From an uncultured Acidobacteriota bacterium (GTDB taxonomy: Bacteria; Acidobacteriota; Thermoanaerobaculia; UBA5066), in NCBI GenBank assembly GCA_903845115.1, contig CAIMWE010000119.1, forward strand, positions 828 to 64,827: DNA of 64,000 bases. The letters run 5' to 3'. The position numbers and the translations under genes were made by a program. Below, piece after piece: positions 21,865 to 47,167 of this stretch (the stretch's first letter is position 1; every line of letters starts with the position of its first letter). The notes below the pieces were generated by a model. That model did not search any database and was not told where the DNA came from. It was given only the letters and a program-made list of their open reading frames with translations.

Positions 21865-21893
21865 GTTCTTTCCCCTCTCGTCTGTTCTTTCTC

Positions 21894-36200: not shown

Positions 36201-39200
36201 AGCGGGTCGATCCGCTCGGGAAGCACGTGGACCAGGCGCCCCACGATCCGGGCCAGCGTCTGCTCCACCGCGGCGGCCTCCCACCGAACCGGCTCTCCGG
36301 GCTCATTCGCCGTCTGACTCGAAGGTCGCAGCGCCTCGCCGGAGAGCGTTCCCCCGCACCGGGAGCGGAGCTCGTCGAGGCTTTCCGTCGAGAGAGCCCG
36401 GCGGTCCGCCTTCCGGTTCGGGGTCAGCGGCAGCCCGGCCAGCGGGACGTAGGTCGACGGGAGCATCGCGGCCGGGAGCCATGCGGCGAGCGCCCGCGCG
36501 CAGGCGGCCGCCGGGTCGGAGCCCGGCTCGGCGGGGACGACGAAGGCGAAGAGCTGGTCCTGCCCCGTGGCGTCGGGCCTGAGGACGACGGCCGCGTCGC
36601 GGATTCCCTCGACCCGGGCAAGCGCGTTCTCCACCTCCCCCAGCTCGATCCTCACGCCGCGGAGTTTCACCTGAGAGTCCCGCCGGCCGAGGAGCTCGAT
36701 CCGCCCGTCGAAGAGGAACCGGCCCCGGTCGCCCGTGAGGTAGAGCCGCCCGTTGCCGAACGGGGTGCCGAAGGGGTCGGGGACGAACGCCGCGCCCGTG
36801 AGGTCGGGCCGCTGGTGGTAGCCCTCGGCGACGCCCTCCCCCCCGATGGCGACCTCGCCCGCGACGCCGGGCGCCACCGGGAGCCCCGCCGGATCGAGGA
36901 CGTAGACGGCCGTGTTCGCGATGGGTCGCCCCACGTCGACCCGCTCGCCGGCCACGACGCGGCCCGCGGTGGACCAGATCGTCGTCTCGGTCGGGCCGTA
37001 GACGTTCCAGAGCTCGTCGCCCACGCCGAGTAGCCGGTCGGCCAGCTCGGGGGAGAGGCGCTCGCCGCCGCAGAGGAGCTTCAGCGGGCGGGTGCGCTTC
37101 CAGCCGGCGGCGAGGAGCATCCGGAAGGTGGCGGGCGTCGCCTGGAGGACCGTCGCGCCTCCGGCCTCCAGGCTCCGACGCAGGCGGGCCCCGTCCCGCG
37201 TCTCCTCGGCCGGCGCGATCTCGACGACTCCCCCGGTCACGAGCGGCAGGAAGAGCTCCAGCGCGGCGATGTCGAACGAGATCGTCGTGACCGCCAGGAG
37301 GCGGTCCGCTCCGGAAAACCCGGGCCGCTCCGCCATCGAGAGGAGCAGGTTCGTCAGGGAGCGGTGCGACACCCGCGTCCCCTTGGGCCGGCCCGTGGAG
37401 CCCGACGTGTAGATGACGTAGGCGAGGCCGTGCCCCGGAACGGGCGAGGAGGCCCCCGCGGGCCGACCGGGAAGCTCGCCGGCGTCCGCGCCAGCGCCGT
37501 CGTCGACCTCCACGATCTTCACGCCGAGGTCGGAGGCCAGGGCGGGGAGCCACCCGAAGCCCCCGGAGGCGAGGGAGGCGGCGGAAGTAGCGGAGGCCGT
37601 GGAACTGGCGAAGGTCGCGGAGGTCACGATGGCCGCGAGGCCGCTGTCCCGGACCATGAACTCCAGCCGCTCCCTCGGGAACGCCGGGTCCAGCGGGACG
37701 TAGGCGGCGCCGGTCTGGAGGACCCCGAGGAGCGCGGCGGGGAGGCTCGCCGACCTGTCCAGGAGGACGCCCACGAGCGAGGAGGGCCCGATCCCTTCTG
37801 CCGCGAGGCGCCGGGCGAGGCGGGCCGAGCGCCTCGCGAGCTCCCCGTAGGTGAGGCTCTCCTGCCGGGCCACGACGGCGAGAGCGCCCTCCCTCTCCCG
37901 GGCGCGCTCCGCGAAGAGGTCGTGGACGCGCCGGTCGAGCGGGAAGTCCCGCGCCGTGTCGTTCCACGTCACCACGACGCGTCGACGCTCCTCCTCGCCG
38001 AGGAGGGGGAGGGCCGCGGCCAGCACGTCGGGCGTTTCGAACGAAGCCTCGACGAGGCGGAGGTACTGCCCCGCCATCCCGCGCACGGTCGCCTCGTCGA
38101 ACAGCTCGGGGTCGTACTTGAAGTTGAGCCGGACGCGGCCGCGGTCCCTGGTCAGCTCGAGCGTCAGGTCGCGCTCCCCTTCCTGGAGGACCTCGGGGAC
38201 TCTCTCCAGGAGAAGCCGCCCCTCTCCCGCGAAGCCGTGGACGGGGTCCCTCCACCCCAGGTCGTAGAAGGCGACGGGAAGCGGCGGACGCGGCAGGGAG
38301 CCCGCCGAGGCGCGGGCCTCGTCGAGGATCGCGGGGAGCGGGAGCGCCGCCTGGTCGAGGGCCGCCGTCAGCGCATCGTGGACCCGGCGTCTCAGGCCGC
38401 GGGCGGTCGGGTCGCCGGAGAGGTCCACCACGACGGGGACGACGTTCATGAAGAGACCGGTCGCTCCCTCGAATCCGGCCGGCCGTCCCGACACGGGAAG
38501 GGCGACGGCGACGCTGGCCTCCTCGGTGTGGCGGTGCAGGAGCAGGTGGAGCGGGGCCAGCCAGGCCGCGACCCGGGTGATTCCCTCGGCGGCGGCGACG
38601 GCCGCCGCCCGCGCGAAGAGAGTCTCGTCCGCCTCGATCCAGACCGTCTCCCCCCGGTGCCGCGGGACCTCGGGGCGCCGGTGGTCGAGCGCCAGCGGGA
38701 GCGGCGGCAGCCCACGCGGGAGGAGCGCTCGCCACGAGGCGCGCAGCCGTTCCCCCTCCGGTCCGCCGAGAAGCCGGCTCTGCCACGACACGAAGTCGCG
38801 GTACGACGGCCCCGCGGGGGGAGCCGGGAGCGGCAGCCCCTGGCGGATCCGCGCGTACAGCTCGGTCAGGTCGGCGAGCAGCGCCTCCAGGGTCAACGCG
38901 TCCGTGACGACGTGATGGAGGGCGAGGAGCAGGAGGGGGCGCTCCCCGGGGAAGAGCGCTGCCCTGAGGAGCGAATCGCGAGTGAGGTCGAAGGAGCGGT
39001 GCCCCTCCTCCCGGACGAGGTCGACCACCTGGTCCCCGGAGAGTCCCGCCACGTCGCGGACTTCGAGAGGGACCCCGGCGGCGCGCCGGACGAACTGGAC
39101 CGGCTCGCCCCCCTCCTCGCGAAGGCCGGTGCGAAGGACGGGGTGCCTCGCGACGACTCCTTCGAGAGCCATCGCGAGGACCCGCAGGTCCACGTCCACC

Positions 39201-42200
39201 GGAAGGCGGAAGGCCGCGGGGCAGCACGATGAGTAGGCACCCGGTGCGAGCCGCTCGACGTTCCAGAAGAAACGCTGCATCGCCGAGAGGGGAAAGGCTT
39301 CTTCCGTCTCCGGGCTGCCGGCCAGGGGCTCGAGGGGGCCCGGAAAGCGCCCTGCCGTCCCGATCGCGGCGACCGGCTCGTTGCCGACATGACCTTCCCG
39401 GACAGGCTCTCCCGCGGGCAAGGCGGCCGAGAGGTGCGCGGCGAGCTGCTCGAGGGTGGGGTGCTGGTAGAGCGACGCGACCGGGACCCTCAGCGACAGG
39501 CTCCGCTCGATCCCCGCGGCGAAGGCCGCGAGCCGGATGGAGTCGAAGCCCAGGTCCACGAGGTGGGCCCGGCCGTCGAGGCTCCCGCTCCGCCCGAGCG
39601 TCTCCGCCGCCAGGCTCGCGAGCCGCGGGAGGAGGGTGGTGCCCTCCCCGGCGCCCTCCGCCTTGCCCGCGACAGCGGCCCGCCCGACCTCGCCCTCCGC
39701 GCCGGGCGCCGCCGGGCGACCGTGGACCGCCTCGATGCGCGAGACCTCCCACGTCGACAGCAGCTTGCGGTCCACCTTGTTGTTCGGGGTGAACGGCAGC
39801 TTCGCGACGAGCACCGTCTCCGCCGGCACCATGTACTCCGGCAGCCGGCCGCGGAGGTCCATCAGGATGGCCCGGCCGTCGACGGCCCCTCCCCCCCCGT
39901 CCCCGGGGACGATGAAGGCCACGAGCCGCTCCTGCCCGTCGGCCTCCCGGCGGAGCGCGACGGCCGCGTCGCGGACCCCGCCGTCGCGGAGTAGCGCGGA
40001 CTCCACCTCTCCCAGCTCGATCCGGTAGCCGCGGAGCTTCACCTGGAGGTCCCCGCGCCCGAGGAACTCGACGCGGCCGCTGGGCAGGAACCGCCCCAGG
40101 TCCCCCGATCGGTAGAGCGGCTCGCCGGGGACGAAGGGATCGGGGAGGAACCTGGCGGCGGTCTCCCCGGGGCGGTTCAGGTAGCCCGGCGAGACGCCGA
40201 CCCCGCCGATGCAGATCTCCCCCGGCTCCCCCACGCCGACCGGGTTCAGGCGATCGTCGAGGACGTAATGGCGGTAGTTCGGGAGCGGCAGCCCGAGCGT
40301 GATGTGGCTTCCGGGAAGGACCTCCTCGAGCGACGAGAGGACGGTGGTCTCGGTCGGTCCGTAGCCGGAGAAGAGCCGGTCGACGCGCGCGAGCACCTGG
40401 TCGGCCAGCTCGCGGCTCAGCGCCTCTCCCGCGGTCACGATCGTGATGGGAAGCCTGCGCGTCCACCCGCCGGCGAGGAGGAGGCGCCAGGTGCCCGGCG
40501 TGGCCTGCAGGTAGGTCATCCGCCCCGACTCCACCTTCTCGCGGAGCAGGACGCCGTCGTGCGTGACCGCCGTGGGGAGCACCTCGAGCCACCCCCCCGT
40601 CACGAGCGGCAGGAAGAAGTCGAAGACCGACAGGTCGAAGCAGACCGACGAGATCGCGAGCAGGCCGTCCGAGCGGGAGAAGCCCGTCTTCCTCGCGACG
40701 CCGAGGAGGAGGTTCGTCACCGACTCGTGCCGGACGGGGACCATCTTCGGACGCCCCGTCGATCCGGACGTGGCGATCACGTAGGCCGGGTTCTCCGGCC
40801 GGGCCCGGCGGTGCGTGAAGAGGAGCCCCCCGAACCACTCCCGGCTCGCGGCAGGCTCTTCCCGGCCTTCGCCGTCGAGGAGCACCGGACGGTGCGCCCC
40901 CTCGGGGAGGCGGGACCGGAGGCTCCGGTCCGTGACGACGAGCGGCGCGAGCGTGTCGTCGAGGATCATCCCGATCCTCTCCGCGGGGTAGGCCGGGTCG
41001 AGGGGAACGTACGCGCCCCCCGCCTTCAGGATCCCGAGGAGCGCCACGACGAGCTCGATCCCGCGGTCCAGGAAGACCCCGACGAGGGAGCCGGGTTCCA
41101 CTCCCAGGGCGACGAGCCTCTCGGCCAGCCGGGCGGCCTGCCTGTTCAGCTCGCCGTACGAGAGGCTCCTGCCCTCGAACGCCACGGCCATCGCGGCGGG
41201 CCTGCCACGCACCTGCTCGAGGAAGAGGTCCAGGAGGGTCCTCCCGGGTGGGAAGGGGGTCCTCGTGTCGTTCCACTCCTCGACGACGAGGTGGCGCTCG
41301 ACCTCGCCGACGAGGGAGACCTCCGAGAGCGCCGTGCCCGGCCGGGCCGCGGCCGCTTCCAGGAAGAGCGTGAACCGGCGGGCCATCCGCTCCGCGTCCC
41401 CGTCGGAAAGGAGGGCCCGGTCGTGGACGAACCGCATCGACGAGCCGTCCTCGGCCACGGCGAGGAGGAGCGCCGCGCCTCTAGGGAGAACGGATCGCGC
41501 CGGATCGGGGACGATCTCGCAACGGACCGGGCCGTTCAGGTCCACGTCCCGCAGGGCGGGATACCGGAACGTCACGTCCCGTGAGAAGGGGCCGCGCTCC
41601 TCGAGCGATCGAAGGTCGTCGGCGAGCCGGGCGATGACCTCCCCCACCGGCTCCTCTCCTGGCGGCTCGACGGCGAGCGGGAGGTACTCCGCGAGGAGGG
41701 AGGAAAGCCCGGCCCGCGAGAGGTCGTCCTGTCGATCTTCATGGAGGTGACGGACCGCCAGGCGGAACGGCTCGCGGGTCGCCCAGCGGCTCCAGAAGGC
41801 GGCGAAAGCGGCCACCCCGGCCCGCCCCTCGCGAACGAGGCTCGCCGCGCCGGTCCCGGGACCCGCGGCGAACGAGCCGATCCCTGCCCCGCCCGTGGGC
41901 CGCGCGGCCTGCTCCTGCGGCGCGGCGGGAGAGAGCCGGCCCAGCCGCTCCACGAAGAAGGCCTCCTGCCGGACGGCCCGCGAGCAGCCCTTCGAGAGGA
42001 GTTCCACCTGCTCCGCCCCCGGCGAGTCGAGGCGCATCCCTTTCCGCCAGCTCTTCGCCAGCTCGTCCGGCCCGACCCGGGTTCCCTCCATCGTCAGGAC
42101 GAAAGGAATCCGCACGTCGCCACGTCCGGTCGCGACCGTCGCCCCCCCGGGCGAGACGTCGACGAGGGTGCCGGGGGGAAGCCCGGAGACCGAGTCCAGC

Positions 42201-42997
42201 ACCTCCAGGGCAGGGACGATGAGGAGTTCCGGCCTCCGGGAAGCGTCGCGAGGCGCCACCAGCTTCGCCGTCCCGAAGGGGTTCGGGTGGGGACCGAAGT
42301 CGAGGGCGCGGCAGAGGGAGTCGATCTCCTGCGCGGGACGCCCCCAGTCGATCACCATCGCGCCGGGGGGCCTCTGGAAGCGCCGGTAGAGAGTCCTTTG
42401 CCCCAGCTCCTGCGGGGTCCCCGCGCCGCCGCGCTCGAGAGCGTCGAGGACCTCGGGGAAGCTCTCGAGGCCGGCCTGGAACGCCTTCAGGTTGAGGGTG
42501 AGCGCGGTCTCGGCCGGGTCGACGGCCAGCGTCCGCCGGGCCAGGATCGGCCCGTCGTCCACCCCGGCGCTCATCCGGTGCCACGAGACGCCGTGGACCT
42601 TCTCGCCCTGCAGGATCGCCCACGTCGTGGAGTGGACCCCCGCGTACCGCGGAAGCGGCCCGTCGTGGAAATTCACCGCGCCCCGCTCTGCCAGCGCCAG
42701 CGACTCGGCCGAGAGGAGCTCCTCGTTCGAGACGCTGAAGAGGTAGTCGAGGTGCGTCCCTTCGAGCGCAGGGCGCAGCTCTTCCGCCCGCGCCGTGAGC
42801 CGGGCCGGGATCCCCCGCTCCCCGGCCCACCGGCGGAGCTCGGGATTCGGCGACGAGACCCCTGCGACCCGGTAGCCGCGCGAAACGAGGACCTCGGCGC
42901 ACTGGACGAGGAGGCTGCGTTCCCCGACGAGCCAGCAGGTGGCGAAGGAGCGGGCGCCCCCGGCCGCCTCTCGGAGCGTTCCCCTTCCCTCCGTCAC
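24272..42997 (-). CDS. Hybrid NRPS / trans-AT PKS megasynthase A (6241 aa): F-C*-A-PCP-C-A(Gly)-PCP-KS-ACP-ACP-KS-DH-cMT-ACP-KS-KR-cMT-ACP
   Basis: Track ORF 24272..44062 trimmed to GTG 42997, which overlaps the TGA of the upstream ER gene (GTGA). Approximate domain map in nt follows. Formyltransferase-like 42997-42050 (VNFHDGPLPRYAG, GVDDGPIL). C-terminal half of a C domain 42050-41290. A1 41290-39760 (YVIATSGSTGRPK). PCP 39650-39440 (LGFDSI). C 39300-37990 (HHVVTD). A2 37970-36400 (YVIYTSGSTGRPKG). PCP 36290-36080 (YGVDSV). KS1 35985-34680 (DTACSSS near 35473, HGTGT present). ACP 34060-33850 (LGLDSI). ACP 33740-33530 (LGVDSI). KS2 33410-32140. DH 31600-30740 (HEVEGRLVVP). cMT 30420-29750 (EVGAGTG). 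ACP 29640-29440. KS3 29290-28010. KR 27350-26050 (GGGGGLG, NYSAAS). cMT 25500-24870. ACP 24700-24490 (LGIDSL). No AT domain anywhere. Confidence 0.95.
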   Translation of the reverse strand: MTEGRGTLREAAGGARSFATCWLVGERSLLVQCAEVLVSRGYRVAGVSSPNPELRRWAGERGIPARLTARAEELRPALEGTHLDYLFSVSNEELLSAESLALAERGAVNFHDGPLPRYAGVHSTTWAILQGEKVHGVSWHRMSAGVDDGPILARRTLAVDPAETALTLNLKAFQAGLESFPEVLDALERGGAGTPQELGQRTLYRRFQRPPGAMVIDWGRPAQEIDSLCRALDFGPHPNPFGTAKLVAPRDASRRPELLIVPALEVLDSVSGLPPGTLVDVSPGGATVATGRGDVRIPFVLTMEGTRVGPDELAKSWRKGMRLDSPGAEQVELLSKGCSRAVRQEAFFVERLGRLSPAAPQEQAARPTGGAGIGSFAAGPGTGAASLVREGRAGVAAFAAFWSRWATREPFRLAVRHLHEDRQDDLSRAGLSSLLAEYLPLAVEPPGEEPVGEVIARLADDLRSLEERGPFSRDVTFRYPALRDVDLNGPVRCEIVPDPARSVLPRGAALLLAVAEDGSSMRFVHDRALLSDGDAERMARRFTLFLEAAAARPGTALSEVSLVGEVERHLVVEEWNDTRTPFPPGRTLLDLFLEQVRGRPAAMAVAFEGRSLSYGELNRQAARLAERLVALGVEPGSLVGVFLDRGIELVVALLGILKAGGAYVPLDPAYPAERIGMILDDTLAPLVVTDRSLRSRLPEGAHRPVLLDGEGREEPAASREWFGGLLFTHRRARPENPAYVIATSGSTGRPKMVPVRHESVTNLLLGVARKTGFSRSDGLLAISSVCFDLSVFDFFLPLVTGGWLEVLPTAVTHDGVLLREKVESGRMTYLQATPGTWRLLLAGGWTRRLPITIVTAGEALSRELADQVLARVDRLFSGYGPTETTVLSSLEEVLPGSHITLGLPLPNYRHYVLDDRLNPVGVGEPGEICIGGVGVSPGYLNRPGETAARFLPDPFVPGEPLYRSGDLGRFLPSGRVEFLGRGDLQVKLRGYRIELGEVESALLRDGGVRDAAVALRREADGQERLVAFIVPGDGGGGAVDGRAILMDLRGRLPEYMVPAETVLVAKLPFTPNNKVDRKLLSTWEVSRIEAVHGRPAAPGAEGEVGRAAVAGKAEGAGEGTTLLPRLASLAAETLGRSGSLDGRAHLVDLGFDSIRLAAFAAGIERSLSLRVPVASLYQHPTLEQLAAHLSAALPAGEPVREGHVGNEPVAAIGTAGRFPGPLEPLAGSPETEEAFPLSAMQRFFWNVERLAPGAYSSCCPAAFRLPVDVDLRVLAMALEGVVARHPVLRTGLREEGGEPVQFVRRAAGVPLEVRDVAGLSGDQVVDLVREEGHRSFDLTRDSLLRAALFPGERPLLLLALHHVVTDALTLEALLADLTELYARIRQGLPLPAPPAGPSYRDFVSWQSRLLGGPEGERLRASWRALLPRGLPPLPLALDHRRPEVPRHRGETVWIEADETLFARAAAVAAAEGITRVAAWLAPLHLLLHRHTEEASVAVALPVSGRPAGFEGATGLFMNVVPVVVDLSGDPTARGLRRRVHDALTAALDQAALPLPAILDEARASAGSLPRPPLPVAFYDLGWRDPVHGFAGEGRLLLERVPEVLQEGERDLTLELTRDRGRVRLNFKYDPELFDEATVRGMAGQYLRLVEASFETPDVLAAALPLLGEEERRRVVVTWNDTARDFPLDRRVHDLFAERAREREGALAVVARQESLTYGELARRSARLARRLAAEGIGPSSLVGVLLDRSASLPAALLGVLQTGAAYVPLDPAFPRERLEFMVRDSGLAAIVTSATFASSTASATSAASLASGGFGWLPALASDLGVKIVEVDDGAGADAGELPGRPAGASSPVPGHGLAYVIYTSGSTGRPKGTRVSHRSLTNLLLSMAERPGFSGADRLLAVTTISFDIAALELFLPLVTGGVVEIAPAEETRDGARLRRSLEAGGATVLQATPATFRMLLAAGWKRTRPLKLLCGGERLSPELADRLLGVGDELWNVYGPTETTIWSTAGRVVAGERVDVGRPIANTAVYVLDPAGLPVAPGVAGEVAIGGEGVAEGYHQRPDLTGAAFVPDPFGTPFGNGRLYLTGDRGRFLFDGRIELLGRRDSQVKLRGVRIELGEVENALARVEGIRDAAVVLRPDATGQDQLFAFVVPAEPGSDPAAACARALAAWLPAAMLPSTYVPLAGLPLTPNRKADRRALSTESLDELRSRCGGTLSGEALRPSSQTANEPGEPVRWEAAAVEQTLARIVGRLVHVLPERIDPLRPLGEYGVDSVRFTALAAELSRRFDTPVEATLFYEQTTLRRVASHLLSRQAKSLETADARALSGGRHGGGGRPEPVAIVGIGGIFPGAATLDELWEHLWNGTDLISVIPPERWQAEAIQGSEGEEGKSVSRWGGFVPDVDAFDAAFFGISPREAERMDPQQRLLLRAAWRAFEHSGHAPSSFAGTRTGVFVGASGFDFEETVFRRGAPVTPHTLSGLSHAVLANRISYLFDLCGPSATVDTACSSSLVALHRAVVSVQRGECRAALAGGVNVILSPLSYVALSQGRMLSPEGRCRAFDRGANGYVRGEGAALLLLRPLSEAIADGDTIHAVILGTAENHGGRTHSLTSPNPRAQAELIVEAQSAAGVDPRTVTYVEAHGTGTALGDPIEVNGLKAAFTTLHERRGLPPPSRPTCGIGSLKTNLGHLEAAAGVAGVVKVALAMRHGKLPGLLHNEEVNPLVDLGESPFYLVRENQEWGRLEGSDGAPVPRRAGVSSFGFGGANAHVVLEEHLEEARTAGTGAALVPLSAADRPRLVAQCRELAAFLEGEAGRGVLLHDLAFTLQAGREAMAERVAIVAASVAELREKLLAVAAGGSHRLPSIPGTSNAAGASDLSDLARRWEGGEAVDWKPLHPLHTGRRRRIPLPGHPFEDVRYGAGAAEAPRRVAAGRLVLRPLAGEREPAGASRPEPPSTPPAPLVPPAAPPAARGTGEPRGESRAGLAARLKEELASVLYADAAKLDADRPFVDLGLDSILTVEFARQVERMTGRSFRATDLYDHPTLARLTTHLLEAGAQTLPFPAAPEAAAAPELAVAPSGPSAPLPALSPAQLQEMLAETLAAVLYVEPSRLAPTRAFVDLGVDSILGVEFVRELSRLLRLDLAASTLYDHSTLEALARHLHGLLPDREVADVSRVEASSGPGGEGGPSPGAAPSRDIAIIGCSGRFPGAADVREFWANLAAGVCSVTEVPPERWDSTRLFDEDPGRPGTSTSRWGGFLADVDRFDPLFFSISPSDAELMDPQQRLFLEETWRSLEDAGYSADGLAGSSTGVWVGVTGSDRYRDRLDGSRPAQEMLGNAHSILAGRVSYALDLRGPAIAVDTACSSSLVAIHLACQSLLAGETDLALAGGVTLYLGEDAYVEMTKAGMLAPDGRCKAFDDRADGFVPGEAVGVVVLKRLSEALADSDHVYGVIRGSGVNQDGRSNGLTAPSARSQAELETRVYRRAGVDPGTITLVEAHGTGTKLGDPIEVEALTKSFRERTDRRQFCALGSVKTNIGHTTAAAGVASVIKVLMALRHRKIPPSLHFERENRHLRLADSPFFVSTRLAEWASEPGVPRRAAVSSFGFSGTNAHLVLEEAPQLPPAPASEGPQLFLLSAKTRGSLERRVSDLLGWLSKEGASARMGDVAFTLASRVHFPLRVGLVAESLEELRRELSRLSAPGALDALRTANPPGPGMEEEGERIVSEIVSTRLSGERLREKLVALARLYTAGVVLRLDPWLGGRGRRLPLPTYPFERERCWAAAPQGAVARFAAGAEPPETRRRGEEFVLHRTFRRSDPVVRDHEVEGRLVVPGMVLLGAAVEARTEARRQGLLPGERPGETGVLRVVRVAWLRPVVVEGTETAVRVRLVLDGADAVRFRVESGEATLHAEGALEPVPAGVPPVDLHAAAARMGELLTGEALYALMESSGVRYGPALRGLTRVLFGRDEALATLREEESLPADPFPAALLDAALQATAVLTRGEDGRVRTMLPFGLDELTVHRPVPAGARALVARRGEGRFDAVVAGLEGEVCATVTGLVLREPRGASDGRGAKGSLLELVTAVPLPSRDLDEWNRLQSGRARLEEIARRAALEALLSLGVLRPGSAVPEEGWRHRLGLLPAYVPLVETLLGLAGKVPRGEQTPTAGPAAGSDRLAERHPELGGRLALLSRCADALPDVVTGKRSALEVLFPSGSPELVESVYQGDGLADLANRCVASVVKRFAEERLAVDPRARLDILEVGAGTGATTRAVLDALLPLGTRVRYVFSDVSAAFVRRAAEFLSAYPSVERVKLDLERDPAGQGFPRGSFDVVIGTNVVHATARVGRTLGFLRELLRTGGLAVVSEATVLDDFAVVTFGLTPGWWAFEDAENRIPGSPLVARERWRELFAGLFSRVHDLAAGHPLLARGGQSVLVAEAGPVDSAPGHEGPGAPRRDAVAYVKGLLARVLKIDQARLSEDASFDVYGLDSLGVLDVNRELEKDFGRLPSTLLFEHLTIGALATYFAREHAAALSRMRGPAVPAAPEPAPRPAPQPFALPSPARPREGEGGDIAILGVAGRYPLGATIDEVWESLEAGRSGIRLVPAERWDWRAEGEGAPRWGGFLQGVDRFDSLYFGISPREAAAMDPQERLFLETAAAVLEDAGFTRRHLSALGSEVGVFVGVMAGDYEWLAAEAAARGLVTDAHAAHWPIANRVSYFFDLKGPSLAVDTACSSSLTAIHLACESLRRGECRAAIAGGVNLILHPVHFRRLARAGMLSPGERCRSFGAGADGFVDGEGVGAVLLKPLARALADGDPIRGVIRGSAINAGGKTSGFTVPSPVAQGDLVTAALRSAGVDPRTVTYVEAHGTGTSLGDPVEIAGLTRAFGGGAPGRSWCAIGSAKSNAGHLEAAAGVLGLTKVLLQMWHGKLVPSLHAEELNPKIDFEASPFRVQRELSAWERPRAASPDSLGPLAAPPRRAGVSSFGAGGANAHLVVEEFEPPWRGEREDEGEPELIVLSARDRERLDARVAALASFLSRRLGEGRLADEGLTLGNVAFTLQDGREAMAERLAFVARSVGEAVGLLVEMAAGREPEGVLRGGVRGTPFLSGDDDVRELLDRWVAKGKLSKVGEAWVSGAEVDFGKLARRGPRRKVSLPTYPFAPVRHWIGGGAAEGQPVRREERPPGRRGAAADRLLYVPRWERRSLRPAPAGEPGGVTVVLLPPEKGAEELAARLARAYAGARTVTLRLGSVARVEDGVREVPAADPHALVAALVGALGGDLHGVSRVYHLGALQRAGGALDDLASLQRVQEAGLLSLFRLVKALREGGARSAEILVATGGVHRLFSSEPPSTPFAGTLPGFVRSLSREYGGWRVRCVDLDGRWPSQEAGALAAALRAELAETDAGDVALREGCRFVRTLLPLDVERPVPFTFPERGVVLIVGGGGGLGLELAAHLAAARSRLVLVGRRSLDAAQRARIAEIERLGGEVAYFQADASVPASLEAAVAQGRERFGPIQAAVHSALVLADRTVDRMDEATLQAALSPKVEGCVALLHALRAEPLEFLLFFSSAESFSGDPGQSNYSAASTFEDAFAAAVGAAVTYPVKTVNWGYWGEVGVVATEQYRARLAALGVHSLSTADGMATVDWLLGEPRVRQVLAIRADDGPLARMGADLSRRVVAHALAADASSSSSASSARPRLAPVGRRERDDEASLRFRNALGEMERLGRELLVATLRRMGVPLGAGARLDPVELFRSLGIAPGRRKLFAALFAMLERAGWLREREGLFNGSPGLEEVGRDAEGAAARLAEFGRKVPEVAPQCELLGSCLAAFPGILTGGTQPTDVLFPGGSLERVAGIYRGHAVADAANRLAAQRVRELCEARSLAAGGKGPIRVLEVGAGTGGTSVFVLRELASVPRVEYVYTDVSRAFLAHGRSAFGGEFPFVEFRLLDVEREGAEQGFEAARFDVVVASNVLHATRDLGRTLGRVKGLLAPGGWLVLNEAFEAEDFLTLTFGLLDGWWLGEDVENRIASSPLASAAQWRRLLEEEGFEPLVTEGEAPGEGGVLLARSDGLVRLAGRDRPPEPLAESPVAAMAVPGAAASGEPSTRVRDAVVSSVAKVLELGAGQIDDTTPFTDLGIDSLLAAEVARSIGESLGAELKPTDLYDHPTVGQLVRYVVARPGLPPGAEPARKPVGQKTTGGEAAGDAEAAGVAGDEWIRSLLRHVSEGEVSVSEAERILERG
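33530..34060 (-). other. Tandem ACP didomain following KS1 of megasynthase A
   Basis: FVDLGLDSILTVEF (Ser codon 33946..33944) and FVDLGVDSILGVEF (Ser codon 33619..33617), 109 aa apart. No reductive domain lies between KS1 and KS2. Confidence 0.85.
42050..42997 (-). other. Formyltransferase-like (F) domain at the N-terminus of megasynthase A
   Basis: SFATCWLVGERSLLVQCAEVLVSRGYRVAGV (Fmt-like Rossmann start). NFHDGPLPRYAG (the N/H of the Fmt SLLPxxRG block; His codon at 42667..42665). SAGVDDGPIL (catalytic Asp block). Confidence 0.75.
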
Positions 42998-44385
42998 GAC
43001 GCCGCCATCCCGCGGGCGTCCCGCGCGAAGCTCGCGAGGCGTTCCGAAAGGACTCGCGCCGCGCCGCACATGAGGCGCTCGGCCAGATCGTCGACGTGCC
43101 TCGCGCGCCAGTCCTCGAGCGGCGTGCCCCGGACCCAGCGATTGAAGGCCCCGAGGGCCGGCCCGCACTGGACCTGGTAGTCCACGACGCGATCGGGGTC
43201 CCCTTCCATCGCCCACCGGTTCGACTGGAAGAAGTACCAGCGGAAGACGAGCGCCATCTTCTGCCTGGGGCTTCTCTCTGCCCGTCGCAGCTCCTCCGGC
43301 AGCGCCTCCTCGTAGTACCGGCGCGTCTCCGCGAAGACCTCCTCGAACGTCTTCCCGAAGTAGCGGGACTCGACCTGCCGCCGCGTCGCCGCATCGACCG
43401 ACTCCCAGGAGGCGTGCTGGCGGTAGAGGTCGTAGAGCTTGCTCGCGCGCGCCGGGAAGAAGACCCCCTTCCGGAGCACCTGGATCTTCGCCCCCATCTC
43501 GAACAGGTCGCCCGCCGGGGCGATCGCGGTGTCCTGGACGTCCGCCCCCTGGAGCATCTCCTTGACCCGGTCGCTCGTCCCCGCCTCGACCGTGCACTGG
43601 TTGATCGAGCCGGTGAGGACGAAGTCGGCCCCCAGGAGGAACGCCGCGGCCACCGCCTCCGGCGTCCCGAGGCCGCCCGCGGCCCCGATGCGGGGCGCAT
43701 CCGGATAGCCGAACCGCTCCTGAAGCTCGTCCCGCAGGCGCATCATCGACGGAACCAGGACCAGCGCCACCCCCTGGTCGGTGTGCCCGCCCGAGTCGGC
43801 CTCGGCGCAGACGTCGTGGGCCATGGGGATGGAAGCCGCCAGGTCGGCCTCCTGCGCCGTGATCTTTCCCGCGTCCCGGAGGGACTGGAGGATCGGGCCC
43901 GGCGGCGGAGAGAGAAACTGGCGGGCGATCTCGGGGCGCGAGACCTTCGCGAGGACGCGGTGCGGCGCCGCCACCGTGCCGTCCGCGCGCCGCTCGAGGC
44001 CCGTGACCCGGTACCGGACGAGGGCGGGAGTCATCTGCAGGAACGCCGCCGCCTCGGCGCACGGGACACCCCCCCGGAGGAAGAGGTCCACCGTCCGCTC
44101 CTCCAGCGCCGGGTCCGTCCCCTGGGAGAGGAAGTTCGCCCCGTACGGCTGCGCCGGTCCGAGCGTCGCCTGGAGGAATCGGACGTCCGCCTCCACCCGG
44201 TCGAGCGGGAGGCCGCCGGTCCCCAGGAAGCCGAGCAGGCCCGCCCGTCCCATCCGGGTCACGAGCTCCTTCGAGCCGATCCCCTTGTACATGGCCCCGG
44301 CGACGTAGGCGTACCGGACGCCGTGCTCGCGCCGGAAGGCGGCGCTGCCGAGGCGCGACGGGTCGACCGGGAGTGCCGTCTCCAT
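42994..44385 (-). CDS. PfaD/PksE-type trans-acting enoyl reductase (FMN, nitronate-monooxygenase fold)
   Basis: 463 aa. YAYVAGAMYKGIGSKELV, EADSGGHTD, LRKGVFFPARA; the characteristic C-terminal extension QKMALVFRWYF is present. Confidence 0.9.
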   Translation of the reverse strand: METALPVDPSRLGSAAFRREHGVRYAYVAGAMYKGIGSKELVTRMGRAGLLGFLGTGGLPLDRVEADVRFLQATLGPAQPYGANFLSQGTDPALEERTVDLFLRGGVPCAEAAAFLQMTPALVRYRVTGLERRADGTVAAPHRVLAKVSRPEIARQFLSPPPGPILQSLRDAGKITAQEADLAASIPMAHDVCAEADSGGHTDQGVALVLVPSMMRLRDELQERFGYPDAPRIGAAGGLGTPEAVAAAFLLGADFVLTGSINQCTVEAGTSDRVKEMLQGADVQDTAIAPAGDLFEMGAKIQVLRKGVFFPARASKLYDLYRQHASWESVDAATRRQVESRYFGKTFEEVFAETRRYYEEALPEELRRAERSPRQKMALVFRWYFFQSNRWAMEGDPDRVVDYQVQCGPALGAFNRWVRGTPLEDWRARHVDDLAERLMCGAARVLSERLASFARDARGMAAS

Positions 44386-44389
44386 CCGT

Positions 44390-45136
44390 TCAGCTCCCGA
44401 AGCGCGACTCGATCCGGCCGCGGACCTCGGCCTGGGCGAAGGTGACCCGGTGCATGGCCAGCTCGCTCTCGACGACGGCCGGAAGGGCCTCGCGAATGGG
44501 CCTGGCCAGCTGCCGCTTCAGCTCCTCCAGGGCGACGCGCGGCTTGTCGGCCAGCTCCCGCGCCAGGGCCAGGCCCGTCTCGACGACCTTCTCCCGCTTC
44601 ACCACCCGCATCCCGGCGCCCCGGTCGCGGAGCTCGCCGCCGTGGTAGCTGGCGGCGGTGTAGAGCATTTCGGTGCCCAGGCACTCCCCGAACTTCCGCG
44701 GCACGATGTAGGTCGCCCCCATCCCGGGCGTGAAGCCGTACCGCATGAAGTTCGCGGCGTAGAGCGACTCCTCCGAGAGGACGAGGAGGTCCGCGAAACA
44801 GCCCAGGGCGAGCCCGCCTCCGAGGGCGTGCCCCTGCATCGCGGCGATCACCGGGATGCGGCAGCGGAGGAAGACGTCGAAGAAGCCCGCGTCGACGAAC
44901 TGGAGCTTCCCCTCGAGGATGGAGAGCAGCTCTTCCTTCGTCCCTCCGCAGCAGAAGTAGGTGTCGTAGCCGTGCACGACGACGACCCTGAGGTCCGGGT
45001 CGGCCTCCACCTCGGCGAAGGCCCCGAGGAGAGCCTGGACGAAGGGACGCGAGAACGTGTTCCTGCTGGCGCGGTCCTCCAGGACGACGACTCCGATGCC
45101 GTTCCCGGCGCGCTTCAGGGAGACGACCTCGCTCAC
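44390..45136 (-). CDS. Enoyl-CoA hydratase-family decarboxylase ECH2 (PksI-like) of the beta-branching cassette
   Basis: 248 aa. HGYDTYFCCGGTKEELL...IPVIAAMQGHALGGG...ANFMRYGFTPGMGATYIVPRKFG is nearly colinear with my recollection of B. subtilis PksI. GTG start with GAGGAGGA RBS. Confidence 0.9.
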   Translation of the reverse strand: MSEVVSLKRAGNGIGVVVLEDRASRNTFSRPFVQALLGAFAEVEADPDLRVVVVHGYDTYFCCGGTKEELLSILEGKLQFVDAGFFDVFLRCRIPVIAAMQGHALGGGLALGCFADLLVLSEESLYAANFMRYGFTPGMGATYIVPRKFGECLGTEMLYTAASYHGGELRDRGAGMRVVKREKVVETGLALARELADKPRVALEELKRQLARPIREALPAVVESELAMHRVTFAQAEVRGRIESRFGS

Positions 45137-45146
45137 GGATTCCTCC

Positions 45147-45920
45147 TCACCGCGCGTCCCAGGGGAACCTTCCCTCCCTCGCGAACCGCCGCATGTTCTC
45201 CTGGACGGCCGGGGCCGCCGCGAGGCGCGAGATCTCGTCCACGGCGTCCCGCTCCATGGCGTCGGTGATCACCCACATCCGCCGGAAGTAGCTCTTGAGC
45301 TCCACGATGGTCGACTCCTCCAGCTTGCCGATCCGGAGGAGCAGACGGCGCAGCGGCTCGTCCAGGTCGTCCGCCACCTCGTCGACGAGGTGGAAAGCGA
45401 GCGCCTCCCGGGCCGGGACGGGCAACGTGGAGAGCGTCATGGTGTAGGTCTTCTGGAAGCCGACCCGCCGGATGAGGTACGGCACCACGCACGCCGGGAG
45501 GAGTCCCCACAGCGCCTCGGAAAGGGCGAACTGGGAGCGCTCCGTGGCCAGGACGAAGTCGCTCGCCGCCGCCAGACCGACCCCCCCCGCCGTCACGCGC
45601 CCGTCCACGCGGGCCACGACGACCTTGGGGCTGAGGCTGAACCGTCGGAGGATCGCCATGTAGCCTTCCGCGCGGTCCGCCTCTCCCCCGCTGCCGTCCC
45701 CCGAGGCCTCCGCGAAGTCCATCCCCGTGCAGAAGGTCCCGGGCTGCCCGTCCAGGACGAAGAACCGGCAGGTGGGATCCCCCTCGGCCAGGTCGAGCGC
45801 CTGCCCGAGCTCCACGAGCATCCGGCCGTTGATGGCGTTCTGCCGTTCCGGACGCGAGAGCGTGACCGTCAGGACGCGCGCCGACTCCTTCAGGACGAGC
45901 GTCTCGAATGGCGGCGTCAC
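45147..45920 (-). CDS. Enoyl-CoA hydratase-family dehydratase ECH1 (PksH-like) of the beta-branching cassette
   Basis: C-terminal 257 codons of track ORF 45147..48272. GTG 45920 has a GAGGGGG RBS, 11 nt after the HMGS stop. LTVTLSRPERQNAINGRM, FCTGMDF, RVDGRVTAGGVGL crotonase motifs. Confidence 0.85.
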   Translation of the reverse strand: MTPPFETLVLKESARVLTVTLSRPERQNAINGRMLVELGQALDLAEGDPTCRFFVLDGQPGTFCTGMDFAEASGDGSGGEADRAEGYMAILRRFSLSPKVVVARVDGRVTAGGVGLAAASDFVLATERSQFALSEALWGLLPACVVPYLIRRVGFQKTYTMTLSTLPVPAREALAFHLVDEVADDLDEPLRRLLLRIGKLEESTIVELKSYFRRMWVITDAMERDAVDEISRLAAAPAVQENMRRFAREGRFPWDAR

Positions 45921-45931
45921 GGCAGGCCCCC

Positions 45932-47164
45932 TCAGCTCCAGGAGTACTCGCGGTGGTAGTTGCGGATGCCGTCCAGGACGAGGAGTCCGCGTCCTGCGAC
46001 CTGGGACTCGTAGAGCGGGGCGAGGGGGCCCCGATCCATCTCCCGGTCCTTCGTCCCGAAGGTCCAGCTGGCGTTCAGGTCGAGAATCCGGTCGTACTCC
46101 TCCATCGTGAGAGGGTACCGCTCCCGGAGCCGGTCGGCGAGCGCGAGGGACCGGAGCTTCTCCTGCGACCTGCTCGTGACGGTGCCGCTGAAGAACTCCG
46201 ACGAGCAGCCGGACCCGTAGGCGAAGAGACCGACCCTCCGGGGAGCCCGGAAGTCGCCGCTGTCGACGATGCCCTGGAGCGCCAGGAAGAGCGTCGCGGA
46301 GTAGATGTTGCCGACCTCGACACAGTGGCGAAGCGACGGCAGGACCCGCCTCTCGAAGTCGGTGTCGCAGGCGGCCGGACCTGCCCGCTTCAGCTTCCGC
46401 ATCATCATCCGGTGGGCTCCCTTGACCATCCCCCCGAACGGCGTGTGGAACGCGAGGTAGTCGAAGGTCGTGGCGAAGTCCGCGCCCTCCACCCTCTCCG
46501 CGTAGACCTCCCAGGACCTCTCGAGGCAGTCGAGGTACGAGAGGAGCGAGAGGTCGGGGTCTCCCGTCTCGAACTCCGCCGTCGGGCGGCAGGTGTCCAT
46601 GACCTCGTAGCCCCAGTACCCGTTCGCCCCGAAGTCGAGGTCCAGGATCTCCGGGTTCTCCCCGACGAGCAGGGCCGCGGCGCCCGTCCCCTGGGACGGC
46701 TCGGCGTACGTCAGCTTGGCCGCCGCCCGGGCCGTGTCGGTCGCCACGACCAGGGCCTTCGCCCCCGGCGAGGCTCCCGACGCGACGAACGCCGCGGCGA
46801 GCTGGAGGGCGGCCGCTCCGCCGTAGCAGGCCTGCTTCACCTCGAAGAGGCGGCAGCGCCGCCCGAGGCCGAGGTGCCGGTGCACGTAGGTGCTGAGCGA
46901 CTTCCCGAAGTCGATCCCCGACTCGGAGGCGGTGACGAGGAGCTCGATGCGCCCCCGCTCCGCGGCGTCCATCCTGTCCACGATCGGCCTGGCGGCGTTC
47001 ACCCCGTTCGTGACGGGGTCCTCCCATGGGAAGCCGACCGCCTTCTTCTCCATCATCAGGTTGCCGAAGCGCTCCAGGTCGAGCCCTCGGGAACGGAAAA
47101 GCGTCCTCACGTCGAGGCACGCGCGGCCACCGTAGGAGTTCAGATCCTCGATTCCGACGGGCAC
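45932..47164 (-). CDS. HMG-CoA-synthase homologue (PksG-like HMGS) for polyketide beta-branching
   Basis: 410 aa. ASESGIDFGKS, EVKQACYGGAAAL (active-site Cys), FHTPFGGMV, YGSGCSSEFF. GTG start 3 nt after the upstream TGA. Confidence 0.9.
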   Translation of the reverse strand: MPVGIEDLNSYGGRACLDVRTLFRSRGLDLERFGNLMMEKKAVGFPWEDPVTNGVNAARPIVDRMDAAERGRIELLVTASESGIDFGKSLSTYVHRHLGLGRRCRLFEVKQACYGGAAALQLAAAFVASGASPGAKALVVATDTARAAAKLTYAEPSQGTGAAALLVGENPEILDLDFGANGYWGYEVMDTCRPTAEFETGDPDLSLLSYLDCLERSWEVYAERVEGADFATTFDYLAFHTPFGGMVKGAHRMMMRKLKRAGPAACDTDFERRVLPSLRHCVEVGNIYSATLFLALQGIVDSGDFRAPRRVGLFAYGSGCSSEFFSGTVTSRSQEKLRSLALADRLRERYPLTMEEYDRILDLNASWTFGTKDREMDRGPLAPLYESQVAGRGLLVLDGIRNYHREYSWS

Positions 47165-47167
47165 GGG

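What the first reader, a model, noticed from the sequence alone, without database searches (positions are those of the whole stretch)
39440..42997. Formyltransferase-like domain fused to a half C domain and an A-PCP loading module at the head of a trans-AT assembly line
The first ~315 residues of megasynthase A look like a methionyl-tRNA-formyltransferase-type domain. The Asn/His block (VNFHDGPLPRYAG) and the Asp block (GVDDGPIL) both appear intact. What follows is not a full C domain but only something resembling its C-terminal half (nt ~42050-41290, ending ...LVGEVERHLVVEEWNDT). After that come a complete A domain and PCP. From established knowledge, F-A-PCP initiation modules are rare (linear gramicidin LgrA, anabaenopeptilide ApdA, oxazolomycin-type F-A(Gly)-PCP loaders). 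They give N-formylated starters or formyl-derived oxazoles. Here the F-loaded residue is followed by C-A(Gly)-PCP and then KS, so the inferred chain start is N-formyl-Xaa-Gly-polyketide. The F / half-C junction suggests the F domain replaced the N-terminal lobe of an ancestral C domain.
Basis: partly seen in the sequence, partly recalled or inferred. Interest (0 to 1): 0.75.

Follow-up and report, generated by a model that had tools for sequence, protein, structure and literature searches.

The report
Formyltransferase plus half-condensation loading module
The first module of this orphan polyketide-peptide assembly line carries an intact formyltransferase joined to the rear half of a condensation domain, a layout shared with the oxazolomycin-type starter modules and over a thousand uncharacterised relatives, so it is a new example of a known kind and not a one-off.

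Summary
Megasynthase A (42997..24272, minus strand, 6241 aa) starts with a two-subdomain Fmt/ArnA-like formyltransferase (aa ~18-315). Asn109, His111 and Asp147 are intact. Next comes a ~250-aa region (aa ~325-578) homologous only to the C-terminal lobe of NRPS condensation domains, with no HHxxxDG lobe. Then follow A-PCP, C-A(Gly)-PCP and KS.

It is not peculiar to this locus. F + half-C + A is a conserved unit in at least 1366 protein clusters across many phyla. One is a Streptomyces cassette arranged like ozmO/ozmP/ozmQ, whose loader aligns end to end with this one at 39% identity. LgrA's short F domain is only a marginal relative.

The best reading is an N-alpha-formylating starter module. 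The half C domain would be a non-catalytic adaptor that keeps the usual C:A platform. The predicted chain start is N-formyl-Xaa-Gly followed by a beta-branched polyketide. Xaa is not glycine by its specificity code, and no OzmP-type cyclodehydratase lies in the window, so an oxazole is unlikely.

Papers call such modules "F-A-PCP". I found no description of the half C domain in them. Its precedent is the ACV synthetase "C*" domain. Verdict: new member of a known kind, moderate interest.

The parts
24272..42997 (-). Megasynthase A (6241 aa). Domain order: F, half-C (C*), A1, PCP | C, A2(Gly), PCP | KS, ACP, ACP | KS, DH, MT, ACP | KS, KR, MT, ACP.
   Evidence: ORF list; start codon analysis; Pfam on four pieces.
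42995..42997 (-). GTG start codon, overlapping the stop codon of the upstream ER-like gene (GTGA).
   Evidence: The next in-frame starts are codons 108, 142 and 146.
42383..42946 (-). Formyltransferase catalytic (N-terminal) subdomain, aa ~18-205. Asn109 = 42671-42673, His111 = 42665-42667, Asp147 = 42557-42559.
   Evidence: Pfam PF00551 E 1.2e-15. Alignment to WbkC and match to ArnA. Conservation in 54 sequences. Motif kept in 137 of 150 representatives. AF2 pLDDT above 90.
42053..42370 (-). Formyltransferase C-terminal subdomain, aa ~210-315. Present in Fmt and ArnA, absent from LgrA's F domain.
   Evidence: Pfam PF02911 E 2.6e-5, above cut-off. Foldseek covers ~303-331 columns of Fmt and ArnA-N chains, TM 0.77-0.87 by target length.
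41264..42025 (-). Half condensation domain (C-lobe only, 'C*'), aa ~325-578. No HHxxxDG. A C7-like RD...R..P motif is kept (Asp474, Arg478).
   Evidence: Profile against PDB hits C domains only at positions ~200-460. hhalign to the protein's own C2 domain, probability 97.4%. Pfam Condensation positions 185-455 in relatives. Alignment A2.
39776..41218 (-). Adenylation domain A1, aa 594-1074. Specificity code DLFQVAGVLK (DLFAVAGVLK by raw pairwise alignment). Not a glycine code.
   Evidence: Pfam; code extraction; register check against a Gly-type relative.
39431..39625 (-). PCP1, aa 1125-1189. Phosphopantetheine attachment Ser1153 (GFDS) = 39539-39541.
   Evidence: Pfam PP-binding E 2e-12; motif search.
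37979..39301 (-). Full-length C domain of module 2, aa 1233-1673, with motif HHVVTDA (His1362).
   Evidence: Pfam Condensation, profile positions 3-274 plus 278-454; motif.
36410..37915 (-). Adenylation domain A2, code DILQLGVIWK (glycine type).
   Evidence: register.
34844..35980 (-). First KS of the trans-AT PKS part. It is followed by tandem ACPs (Ser3018, Ser3127), which suggests a beta-branching module.
   Evidence: Pfam; ACP motifs.
42994..51375 (-). Accessory genes upstream on the same strand. ER-like 42994-44385. ECH 44390-45136 and 45147-45959. HMG-CoA synthase-like 45932-47164. Free-standing KS 47168-48445. ACP and PPTase hits in ORFs 48442-49707 and 49667-51265. Discrete AT 50518-51375.
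   Evidence: Pfam.

Best explanation
This is the initiation module of an orphan trans-AT PKS-NRPS line.

1. A1 activates an amino acid and loads it on PCP1. The amino acid is not glycine by its code and is probably small to medium and uncharged.
2. [quoted passage not shown]
3. The ~250-residue C-lobe-only 'half C domain' between F and A has no catalytic histidine motif. It acts as a structural adaptor. It keeps the canonical C-lobe:A-core platform and rigidly carries the F domain where a full C domain would sit. PCP1 can then shuttle between A and F much as it would between A and C.
4. The full C domain of module 2 (HHxxxD intact) joins formyl-Xaa to Gly.
5. KS1, the tandem ACPs and the HMG-CoA synthase cassette then add a beta-branched ketide. 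The chain therefore begins N-formyl-Xaa-Gly-(beta-branched polyketide).

Shown by computation: domain identities and borders, catalytic residues, family membership, predicted folds. Inferred: formyl transfer, its timing, the adaptor role, the product.
For: F domain.
- Pfam and NCBIfam hits to formyltransferase models.
- Asn109/His111/Asp147 align with the catalytic blocks of WbkC. N109 and D147 are at least 90% conserved and H111 is invariant in 54 relatives. The motif is kept in 137 of 150 family representatives.
- The AF2 model of aa 1-600 has pLDDT 91.7 and pTM 0.88. It matches Fmt and ArnA-N chains at TM 0.77-0.87 by target length.

Half C domain.
- It is a C-lobe by profile search.
- The model of half-C + A core superposes on C-A didomain crystal structures over ~700 columns, TMq 0.78-0.85 (Txo1 6p4u best). 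A-only structures cover ~440 columns, TMq ~0.55. The predicted interface is therefore the canonical platform.
- A C-lobe-only 'C*' domain is needed for activity in ACV synthetase (PMC7884236).

Link to known loaders.
- aa 16-1190 align colinearly at 39% with a 1195-aa Streptomyces protein. That protein is followed by a 376-aa SGGKDS protein and a KS-ACP protein, the published ozmO-ozmP-ozmQ arrangement.
- OzmO (1196 aa) and PtxE (1154 aa) are described as F-A-PCP, and those lengths fit F + half-C + A + PCP.

Downstream logic: C (HHVVTDA), A2 with a Gly code, PCP, KS. No SGGxDS protein is encoded in the window.
Against: - No biochemical data exist for this protein or for any F + half-C module that I could find.
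- The canonical H-x-S-L-L-P-x-x-R-G motif reads H-D-G-P-L-P-R-Y-A-G here and throughout the family. Folate binding has therefore not been demonstrated.
- The A1 code (DLFQVAGVLK) matches no substrate I can assign.
- The window ends at 64000, so an OzmP-like gene or other tailoring genes could lie outside it.
- The adaptor role rests on predicted structures that were trained on C-A didomains. I had no model coordinates, so I could not check where the F active site points.
- In some relatives the F + half-C unit sits inside a protein after a full C domain (L013). The domain is therefore not restricted to N-alpha formylation of starters.
Confidence: 0.7

Rival explanations
1. Oxazole-forming starter as in oxazolomycin, conglobatin and phthoxazolin. 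The formyl group would be consumed by an ATP-dependent cyclodehydratase, giving an oxazole at the chain start instead of staying as N-formyl.
For: The loader is a full-length homologue (39%) of a Streptomyces F-C*-A(Gly)-PCP protein that sits next to an OzmP-like SGGKDS protein and a KS-ACP protein. The published model for OzmO, PtxE and CongA is formyl-Gly to oxazole.
Against: No SGGxDS/PP-loop protein is encoded anywhere in the 64-kb window. The A1 code DLFQVAGVLK differs from the Gly code of the oxazole-type relative, DILQLGMIWK, read. The next domain is a C domain, so formyl-Xaa is joined to Gly by an amide bond. The published oxazole model instead extends formyl-Gly by a KS with malonate.
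Confidence: 0.07
2. The F domain is an inactive relic kept for structural reasons, and the module simply loads an unmodified amino acid.
For: The SLLP..RG motif is altered to GPLPRYAG. The window's half C domain is so diverged that Pfam barely sees it (E 0.26), which shows the region tolerates drift.
Against: The altered motif is the family consensus, not a local decay. Asn/His/Asp are all kept. The AF2 confidence for F is very high. The rhizopodin F loader is cited as a relative in the literature; that rhizopodin keeps the formyl group is from my own knowledge, not checked here.
Confidence: 0.1
3. The F domain formylates a side-chain nitrogen (for example an N-hydroxy or amino group), or transfers another one-carbon or acyl unit, rather than capping the alpha-amine.
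For: Relatives exist in which F + half-C + A is internal, after A-PCP-C. Their A code DGEDIGTVIK resembles, from my memory, N5-hydroxyornithine codes (L013). Ten of the 150 best representatives have the unit starting more than 300 residues from the N-terminus.
Against: [quoted passage not shown] Apart from the invariant Asp235, the A1 pocket residues are only hydrophobic, small or the neutral polar Gln (Q in the corrected register), with nothing to bind a basic side chain. No N-hydroxylase gene was seen in the window.
Confidence: 0.08

Closest known systems
OzmO / PtxE / CongA-type formylating loading modules (oxazolomycin, phthoxazolin, conglobatin), with RizA of rhizopodin cited as a related F loader
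   Same: An N-terminal Fmt-like F domain heads a PKS-NRPS line, trans-AT in the cases of OzmO and PtxE. The lengths agree: 1196 and 1154 aa against 1189 aa to the end of PCP1 here. There is end-to-end 39% identity to a Streptomyces protein in an ozmO/ozmP/ozmQ-like cassette, including the half C region.
   Different: A1 is not glycine-specific. No OzmP-like cyclodehydratase lies in the window. The loader is fused in cis to C-A(Gly)-PCP-KS and is not a stand-alone protein that feeds a KS. The papers I read describe these modules as F-A-PCP and do not mention a half C domain. I could not obtain the OzmO sequence itself.
LgrA initiation module of linear gramicidin synthetase (F-A-PCP-C-A(Gly)-PCP)
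   Same: The module logic is the same: formyl-Xaa is made on module 1 and condensed with Gly on module 2. In LgrA the F domain sits roughly where a C domain would on the A core (review PMC10510592).
   Different: LgrA's F domain is 193 residues with a single subdomain, fused directly to A. It is only a marginal sequence match (E 0.008, 18 bits), whereas ArnA, WbkC and Fmt score 1e-11 to 1e-20. It has no Formyl_trans_C subdomain and no C-lobe. The two look like independent recruitments of a formyltransferase.
C* domain of ACV synthetase module 1 and the ADA domain of Lys2-type reductases (PMC7884236)
   Same: A C-lobe-only remnant of a condensation domain lies directly N-terminal to an initiating A domain. 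It lacks HHxxxDG and keeps only late C motifs. It is thought to be structural, and deleting it abolishes activity.
   Different: In ACVS nothing is fused in front of C*. Here a complete two-subdomain formyltransferase precedes it, predicted to form one rigid unit with it (pTM 0.88).
Sugar N-formyltransferases (WbkC, ArnA N-terminal domain) and Met-tRNA formyltransferase Fmt
   Same: These are the closest solved structures by sequence (E 1e-20 to 1e-11) and by fold (TM 0.77-0.87 by target length). They have the same two-subdomain layout and the same Asn/His/Asp set.
   Different: They are free-standing or fused to unrelated domains and act on nucleotide sugars or tRNA, not on a carrier-protein thioester. 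Their motif is HxSLLPxxRG, against HDGPLPRYAG here.

Membership tests
Fmt-fold N10-formyl-THF formyltransferases (PF00551 + PF02911) | Scores above the curated cut-offs of both Pfam models | tested here: met
   Formyl_trans_N 58.1 bits (cut-off 26.1). Formyl_trans_C 24.7 bits (cut-off 21.1)..
Fmt-fold N10-formyl-THF formyltransferases (PF00551 + PF02911) | Catalytic Asn, His and Asp present at aligned positions | tested here: met
   N109, H111 and D147 align with the catalytic blocks of WbkC. N109 and D147 are at least 90% conserved and H111 is invariant in 54 relatives.
Fmt-fold N10-formyl-THF formyltransferases (PF00551 + PF02911) | Two-subdomain Fmt/ArnA fold | tested here: met
   AF2 pLDDT 91.7. 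Foldseek TM 0.77-0.87 by target length to Fmt and ArnA-N chains over ~303-331 columns.
Fmt-fold N10-formyl-THF formyltransferases (PF00551 + PF02911) | Formyl transfer from N10-formyl-THF | not testable with these tools
   Needs an enzyme assay.
LgrA-type F domain | Short (~190 aa) single-subdomain F fused directly to the A core | tested here: not met
   Here F has both subdomains (aa 18-315) and is followed by a 250-aa C-lobe. LgrA's F domain is 193 residues.
LgrA-type F domain | Significant sequence similarity to the LgrA F domain | tested here: not met
   E 0.008, 18 bits, ranked below about 58 other Fmt-fold chains. Absent at E<=0.01 when the 600-aa query was used.
OzmO-type formylating loader | Colinear full-length homology to an F..A-PCP protein that sits in an ozmO/ozmP/ozmQ-like gene trio | tested here: met
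   39% identity, aa 16-1190 against 4-1151 of P0102. The neighbours of P0102 are a 376-aa SGGKDS protein and an 881-aa KS-ACP protein. OzmO itself was not available, so the link to the named proteins rests on arrangement and length.
OzmO-type formylating loader | Glycine-specific A domain | tested here: not met
   A1 code DLFQVAGVLK, against DILQLGMIWK read for P0102 from the alignment.
OzmO-type formylating loader | Adjacent OzmP/CongE-type ATP-pyrophosphatase (SGGKDS) | tested here: not met
   No SGGxDS motif in any of the six frames of the window. Sequence beyond 64000 is unknown.
C-lobe-only 'C*' domains | Homology confined to the C-terminal lobe of C domains, with no HHxxxDG | tested here: met
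   Profile hits cover C-domain positions ~200-460 only. hhalign aligns to positions 263-459 of 461 of the window's own C2 segment. The HH...DG pattern matches nowhere in the protein; the only H[HQ]...D motif found in aa 1201-1700 is HHVVTDA at 1361, in C2.
C-lobe-only 'C*' domains | Packs on the A core like the C-lobe of a full C domain | tested here: met
   This rests on prediction only. Foldseek aligns ~700 columns to C-A didomain structures, TMq 0.78-0.85.
C-lobe-only 'C*' domains | Needed for activity of the adjacent A domain | not testable with these tools
   Shown for ACVS by deletion (PMC7884236). Not tested for this family.
trans-AT PKS | KS domains without an in-cis AT, plus a discrete AT gene | tested here: met
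   No Acyl_transf_1 hit in megasynthases A or B. Discrete AT at 50518-51375, and an ER-like gene at 42994-44385.

The most novel reading that the evidence does not exclude
F + C-lobe would be a second, independent way in which NRPSs acquired formylation. A complete Fmt/ArnA-like enzyme was grafted in place of the N-lobe of a condensation domain. The result is a chimeric 'pseudo-C' domain in which the folate site takes over the position and the carrier-protein approach path of the lost HHxxxDG site. This unit, not the LgrA type, would then be the dominant form of in-cis formylation in bacteria: at least 1366 clusters at 50% identity, in many phyla. It would be used for starter capping, for oxazole starters and, when internal, for side-chain formylation.
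Probability: 0.35. Interest if true: 0.65.

Novelty: new member of a known kind. Interest (0 to 1): 0.45.

Why it matters
For this locus, the result gives a concrete and testable prediction: the product of an orphan trans-AT PKS-NRPS from an uncultured bacterium should start N-formyl-Xaa-Gly followed by a beta-branched ketide.

More generally, the 'F-A-PCP' loaders of the oxazolomycin class appear to be F-C*-A-PCP, structurally unlike the only solved example, LgrA. This matters in three ways.
- Domain annotation: the ~250-aa gap is not a linker.
- Engineering: swapping F domains without the C-lobe is likely to break the A-domain platform, as deleting C* does in ACV synthetase.
- Prevalence: a 2022 review calls in-cis F domains very scarce and strictly N-terminal. 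The census here finds over a thousand sequence clusters, some with the unit inside a protein.

Tried and rejected
- Pfam on the window's own gap region gives only E 0.26 for Condensation. I had to go through a profile of homologues to identify it.
- The first Foldseek search with the F + half-C model returned only formyltransferases in the 50 rows shown. I therefore made a second model of half-C + A.
- No model coordinates are returned, so I could not measure where the F active site points relative to the C-lobe or to PCP.
- The oxazolomycin paper (PMC2888422) is not held, and the OzmO, PtxE, CongA and RizA sequences were not obtainable. The link to them rests on a Streptomyces protein in an equivalent gene trio and on published lengths.
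- The genome scan did not find the source organism (best identity 37%). The only exact match to a window gene that I found is an unnamed ENA metagenome protein.
- Literature searches for a described 'F + truncated C' architecture and for a matching N-formyl trans-AT product found nothing.
- The oxazole hypothesis was considered and set aside: no SGGxDS protein, a non-Gly A1, and a C domain next.
- My pairwise extraction of position 278 of the specificity code was one residue out of register (A instead of Q). I corrected it using the canonical Gly code and the alignment.
- One Pfam call failed on a frame error and was repeated.
Full report
**Gene and setting.** The window is 67-75% G+C. A minus-strand ORF of 6241 codons runs from a GTG at 42997 to 24272. 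The GTG overlaps the stop codon of the upstream gene as GTGA. The next in-frame start codons are codons 108, 142 and 146, inside the formyltransferase fold. GC3 over the first 315 codons is 0.91 in this frame, against 0.75 and 0.54 in the others. The formyltransferase region is therefore part of the protein.

Pfam gives this domain order: Formyl_trans_N (aa 69-184), Formyl_trans_C (215-305), a gap, AMP-binding (594-1074), PP-binding (1125-1189), Condensation (1233-1673), AMP-binding, PP-binding, KS, two ACPs, KS-DH-MT-ACP, KS-KR-MT-ACP.

Upstream on the same strand lie the following:
- a second megasynthase ending in a thioesterase (53410-63279), and the end of a third;
- an ABC1 kinase;
- a discrete AT;
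- a PPTase hit;
- an ACP, a free-standing KS, an HMG-CoA synthase homologue and two ECH genes (a beta-branching cassette);
- an ER-like gene.

Downstream genes look unrelated to the cluster: aldehyde:ferredoxin oxidoreductase, Fe-ADH, MoeA, an ABC transporter and serine dehydratase. This is a trans-AT PKS-NRPS cluster in which the biosynthetically first gene is the last in the gene row.

**The formyltransferase.**
- Both Pfam models score above their cut-offs. NCBIfam models for formyltransferase, ArnA and Fmt also hit.
- The closest solved proteins by sequence are the sugar N-formyltransferase WbkC (E 1e-19 to 4e-20), the ArnA N-terminal domain (about 1e-19 to 1e-17) and Fmt (about 1e-15 to 1e-10).
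- VNFHDGPLPRYAG...GVDDGPIL aligns residue by residue with VNLHPSLLPAYRG...ADTGAIL of WbkC. This places Asn109, His111 and Asp147 in the catalytic blocks.
- In an alignment of 54 relatives H111, D112, L115, P116 and G120 are invariant. N109, P114, R117, Y118, A119 and D147 are at least 90% conserved.
- Of the 150 best family representatives, 137 keep N-x-H-D-[GAS]-x-L-P-x-x-A-G.
- An AlphaFold2 model of aa 1-600 has mean pLDDT 91.7 and pTM 0.88. It matches Fmt and ArnA-N chains over ~303-331 columns, with TM-scores of 0.77-0.87 normalised to the target. Both subdomains are therefore present.
- LgrA's F domain is only a marginal hit (E 0.008, 18 bits, aa 82-191). It is described as 193 residues, ~24 kDa (PMC10510592).

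**The gap is a half condensation domain.**
- The window's own residues 316-600 give only a weak Condensation hit (E 0.26, profile positions 401-453). Three relatives hit the Condensation model at positions ~185-455 of 456, at or just below the gathering score.
- A profile of 19 such regions (alignment A2) hits NRPS C domains in the PDB, and only in their C-terminal halves: McyB 199-464 (E 9e-23), Txo2 243-458 (2e-19), Txo1 238-455, CDA-C1 241-450, EntF 211-450, and the LgrA module-2 C domain 1024-1216.
- hhalign of the same profile against a segment spanning this protein's own module-2 C domain aligns positions 263-459 of 461 (probability 97.4%, E 1e-11).
- The HH...DG pattern matches nowhere in the protein, and the only H[HQ]...D motif found in aa 1201-1700 is HHVVTDA at 1361, in module 2.
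- The conserved residues of the half domain are E345, W348 and L352 (the 'FW..RL' helix that opens the C-lobe), P440, D474 and R478 (an RD...R..P motif like core motif C7).
The borders are about aa 325-578, nt 42025-41264.

**How it packs.** A second model, half-C + A core (aa 318-1000; pLDDT 83.4, pTM 0.75), was searched against the PDB. The top hits are C-A didomain or C-A-PCP structures (Txo1, Txo2, McyB, EntF, LgrA module 2, SrfA-C). They align over ~690-740 columns with query-normalised TM 0.75-0.85 (best 6p4u: 0.85, rmsd 3.9 A). A-domain-only entries align over ~430-445 columns, TM ~0.55. The half C domain is thus predicted to sit on the A core exactly as the C-lobe does in the canonical C:A platform. 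This is a prediction made by a method trained on such structures.

**The family.**
- A word-indexed search with aa 1-600 found 78 relatives, many covering 90-98% of the query.
Of these, 596 were confirmed, and the best 80 matched roughly query residues 2-23 through to 531-600 (most of them 20-600). They come from Acidobacteriota, Gemmatimonadota, Myxococcota, Planctomycetota, Chloroflexota, Verrucomicrobiota, Mycobacterium and Proteobacteria.
- An exhaustive phmmer run against 1.84 billion representatives gave 1366 clusters at E<=1e-30. Nearly all of the best 150 match aa ~18-578 in one stretch, and none exceeds 41% identity.
- The unit is N-terminal in about 75 of the 80 loci.
- Tblastn against plasmids finds it on rhizobial, Bradyrhizobium and Mycetohabitans replicons.

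**Link to characterised loaders.** Papers describe OzmO (1196 aa), PtxE (1154 aa) and CongA as F-A-PCP loaders that formylate glycyl-S-PCP. Each is followed by a gene for an SGGKDS ATP-pyrophosphatase-like protein (OzmP, PtxD, CongE) and then a KS protein. The CongA F domain is reported as 23% identical to LgrA's, 38% to rhizopodin's and 59% to OzmO's (PMC5764310, PMC4504003, PMC9057759).

One of the representatives, P0102, is a 1195-aa protein of Streptomyces sp. NPDC002928. On its contig it is followed by a 376-aa protein containing YSGGKDST and then by an 881-aa KS-ACP protein. This is the same trio. The window's aa 16-1190 align colinearly with P0102 residues 4-1151 at 39% identity, including the half C region. 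P0102's A-domain code, read from that alignment, is DILQLGMIWK (glycine). I conclude that the window's module belongs to the OzmO-type loader class, and that this class carries the half C domain. None of the papers I read mentions it. I could not obtain OzmO itself, so that last step is an inference.

**Specificity and product.** Raw pairwise alignment to GrsA-PheA gives A1 = DLFAVAGVLK and A2 = DILALGVIWK. Position 278 was one residue out of register. In the register that gives the canonical Gly code (Q two residues before 'TP', as in P0102), A2 = DILQLGVIWK, a glycine code. A1 = DLFQVAGVLK looks like a glycine-type scaffold with an enlarged pocket (G322, L331), and I cannot assign it. No SGGxDS motif exists in any frame of the window. 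With a C domain next, the likely chain start is N-formyl-Xaa-Gly. KS1, the tandem ACPs and the HMGS/ECH cassette would then add a beta-branched ketide. A Mycobacterium sp. MAG (L024) has a protein colinear with aa 20-3173 at 40% identity: F, ~260-aa gap, A-PCP-C-A-PCP-KS-ACP-ACP. The head architecture therefore recurs.

**Precedent for the half C domain.** ACV synthetases and Lys2-type reductases have an N-terminal 'C*' or 'ADA' domain. It superposes on the C-lobe of VibH, lacks motifs C1-C5 and keeps C7. Its deletion abolishes penicillin production (PMC7884236). The present module is the same idea with a formyltransferase fused in front.

**Mechanism proposed.** A1 loads Xaa on PCP1. F formylates the alpha-amine with N10-formyl-THF. 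C* is a non-catalytic adaptor that preserves the C:A platform and holds F rigidly (pTM 0.88 for F + C*). C2 couples formyl-Xaa to Gly. My confidence is 0.7. The rivals are an oxazole starter (0.07), an inactive F domain (0.10), and side-chain or other acyl transfer (0.08).

**Novelty.** The module is a new, distant member (at most 41% identity to anything in 15 billion proteins) of a known class of formylating loaders, in an orphan cluster from an uncultured organism. The window's serine dehydratase is 100% identical to an unnamed ENA metagenome protein, and the nearest named relative, at 75%, is a 'Syntrophus sp.' MAG. What appears to be undescribed is the family-wide F + C-lobe architecture and how common it is. 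A 2022 review calls in-cis F domains very scarce and strictly N-terminal (PMC8949500).

Noticed in passing
L009:10001-14686 and about 45 of loci L001-L080: The commonest relative is a single-module protein of ~1550-1640 aa. It consists of F, half-C, a Gly-type A domain (codes like DILTxGMIWK) split by an inserted luciferase-like monooxygenase (PF00296), and PCP. It occurs in many phyla, and NCBI labels it 'MupA/Atu3671 family FMN-dependent LLM'. I know of no assigned function.
   Followed up: partly
L013:6725-14335 (uncultured Desulfobacterium MAG); also P0100, P0105, P0121, P0175, P0208: The F + half-C + A unit occurs inside a protein, after A-PCP and a full C domain (A-PCP-C-F-C*-A-PCP-TE). 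The A code DGEDIGTVIK resembles, from my memory, N5-hydroxyornithine codes. This suggests in-cis side-chain formylation in a siderophore-like NRPS, contrary to the statement that cis F domains only cap N-termini.
   Followed up: partly
L003:8646-15309 (uncultured deltaproteobacterium MAG): A 346-aa SGGKDS / PAPS_reduct-like protein lies directly upstream of F-C*-A-PCP-PCP-nitroreductase (an Ox-type domain). It looks like an OzmP/OzmO-type oxazole starter cassette outside the actinomycetes, with an extra oxidase domain.
   Followed up: partly
L024:9956-19051 (Mycobacterium sp. MAG, 61% G+C): This protein is colinear with window megasynthase A aa 20-3173 at 40% identity and has the same head: F, ~260-aa gap, A-PCP-C-A-PCP-KS-ACP-ACP. 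The next ORF continues ACP-KS-DH. It may be a related pathway in another phylum.
   Followed up: partly
window 53410-63279 (-) and 63272-64000 (-): The megasynthase that ends in a thioesterase lies upstream of the accessory genes and of megasynthase A, and another megasynthase (ending in a KR domain) runs off the window. Gene order is therefore not colinear with biosynthesis, and the cluster is incomplete in this window.
   Followed up: partly
window 51404-53413 (-): An ABC1 atypical kinase-like gene (669 aa) sits between the TE-ending megasynthase and the discrete AT, inside the PKS gene row. This is an unusual companion for a trans-AT cluster.
   Followed up: no
window 38912-38932 (-), aa 1361-1367: The module-2 C domain has HHVVTDA in place of HHxxxDG. 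The catalytic His and the Asp are kept, and the final Gly is Ala.
   Followed up: no
window 13890-23864: Downstream of the cluster lie a molybdate/tungstate-type binding protein and permease, MoeA, an Fe-alcohol dehydrogenase and an aldehyde:ferredoxin oxidoreductase. Together with the best named relative of the serine dehydratase ('Syntrophus sp.' MAG, 75%), this points to an uncultured anaerobe with an unusually high G+C content (~72%).
   Followed up: partly
window 27128-34129 (+), 27981-36284 (-), 36303-41276 (-): Very long ORFs (up to 2767 aa) lie antisense to or out of frame with the megasynthase. They are by-products of the high G+C content and are not genes.
   Followed up: partly
PMC11869996 (mollusc Fmt-A-T-R, ~180 kDa): The animal-encoded formylating NRPS-like enzyme of the bursatellin pathway is large enough (~1600 aa) to hold F + half-C before A-T-R. 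It may belong to the same family.
   Followed up: no
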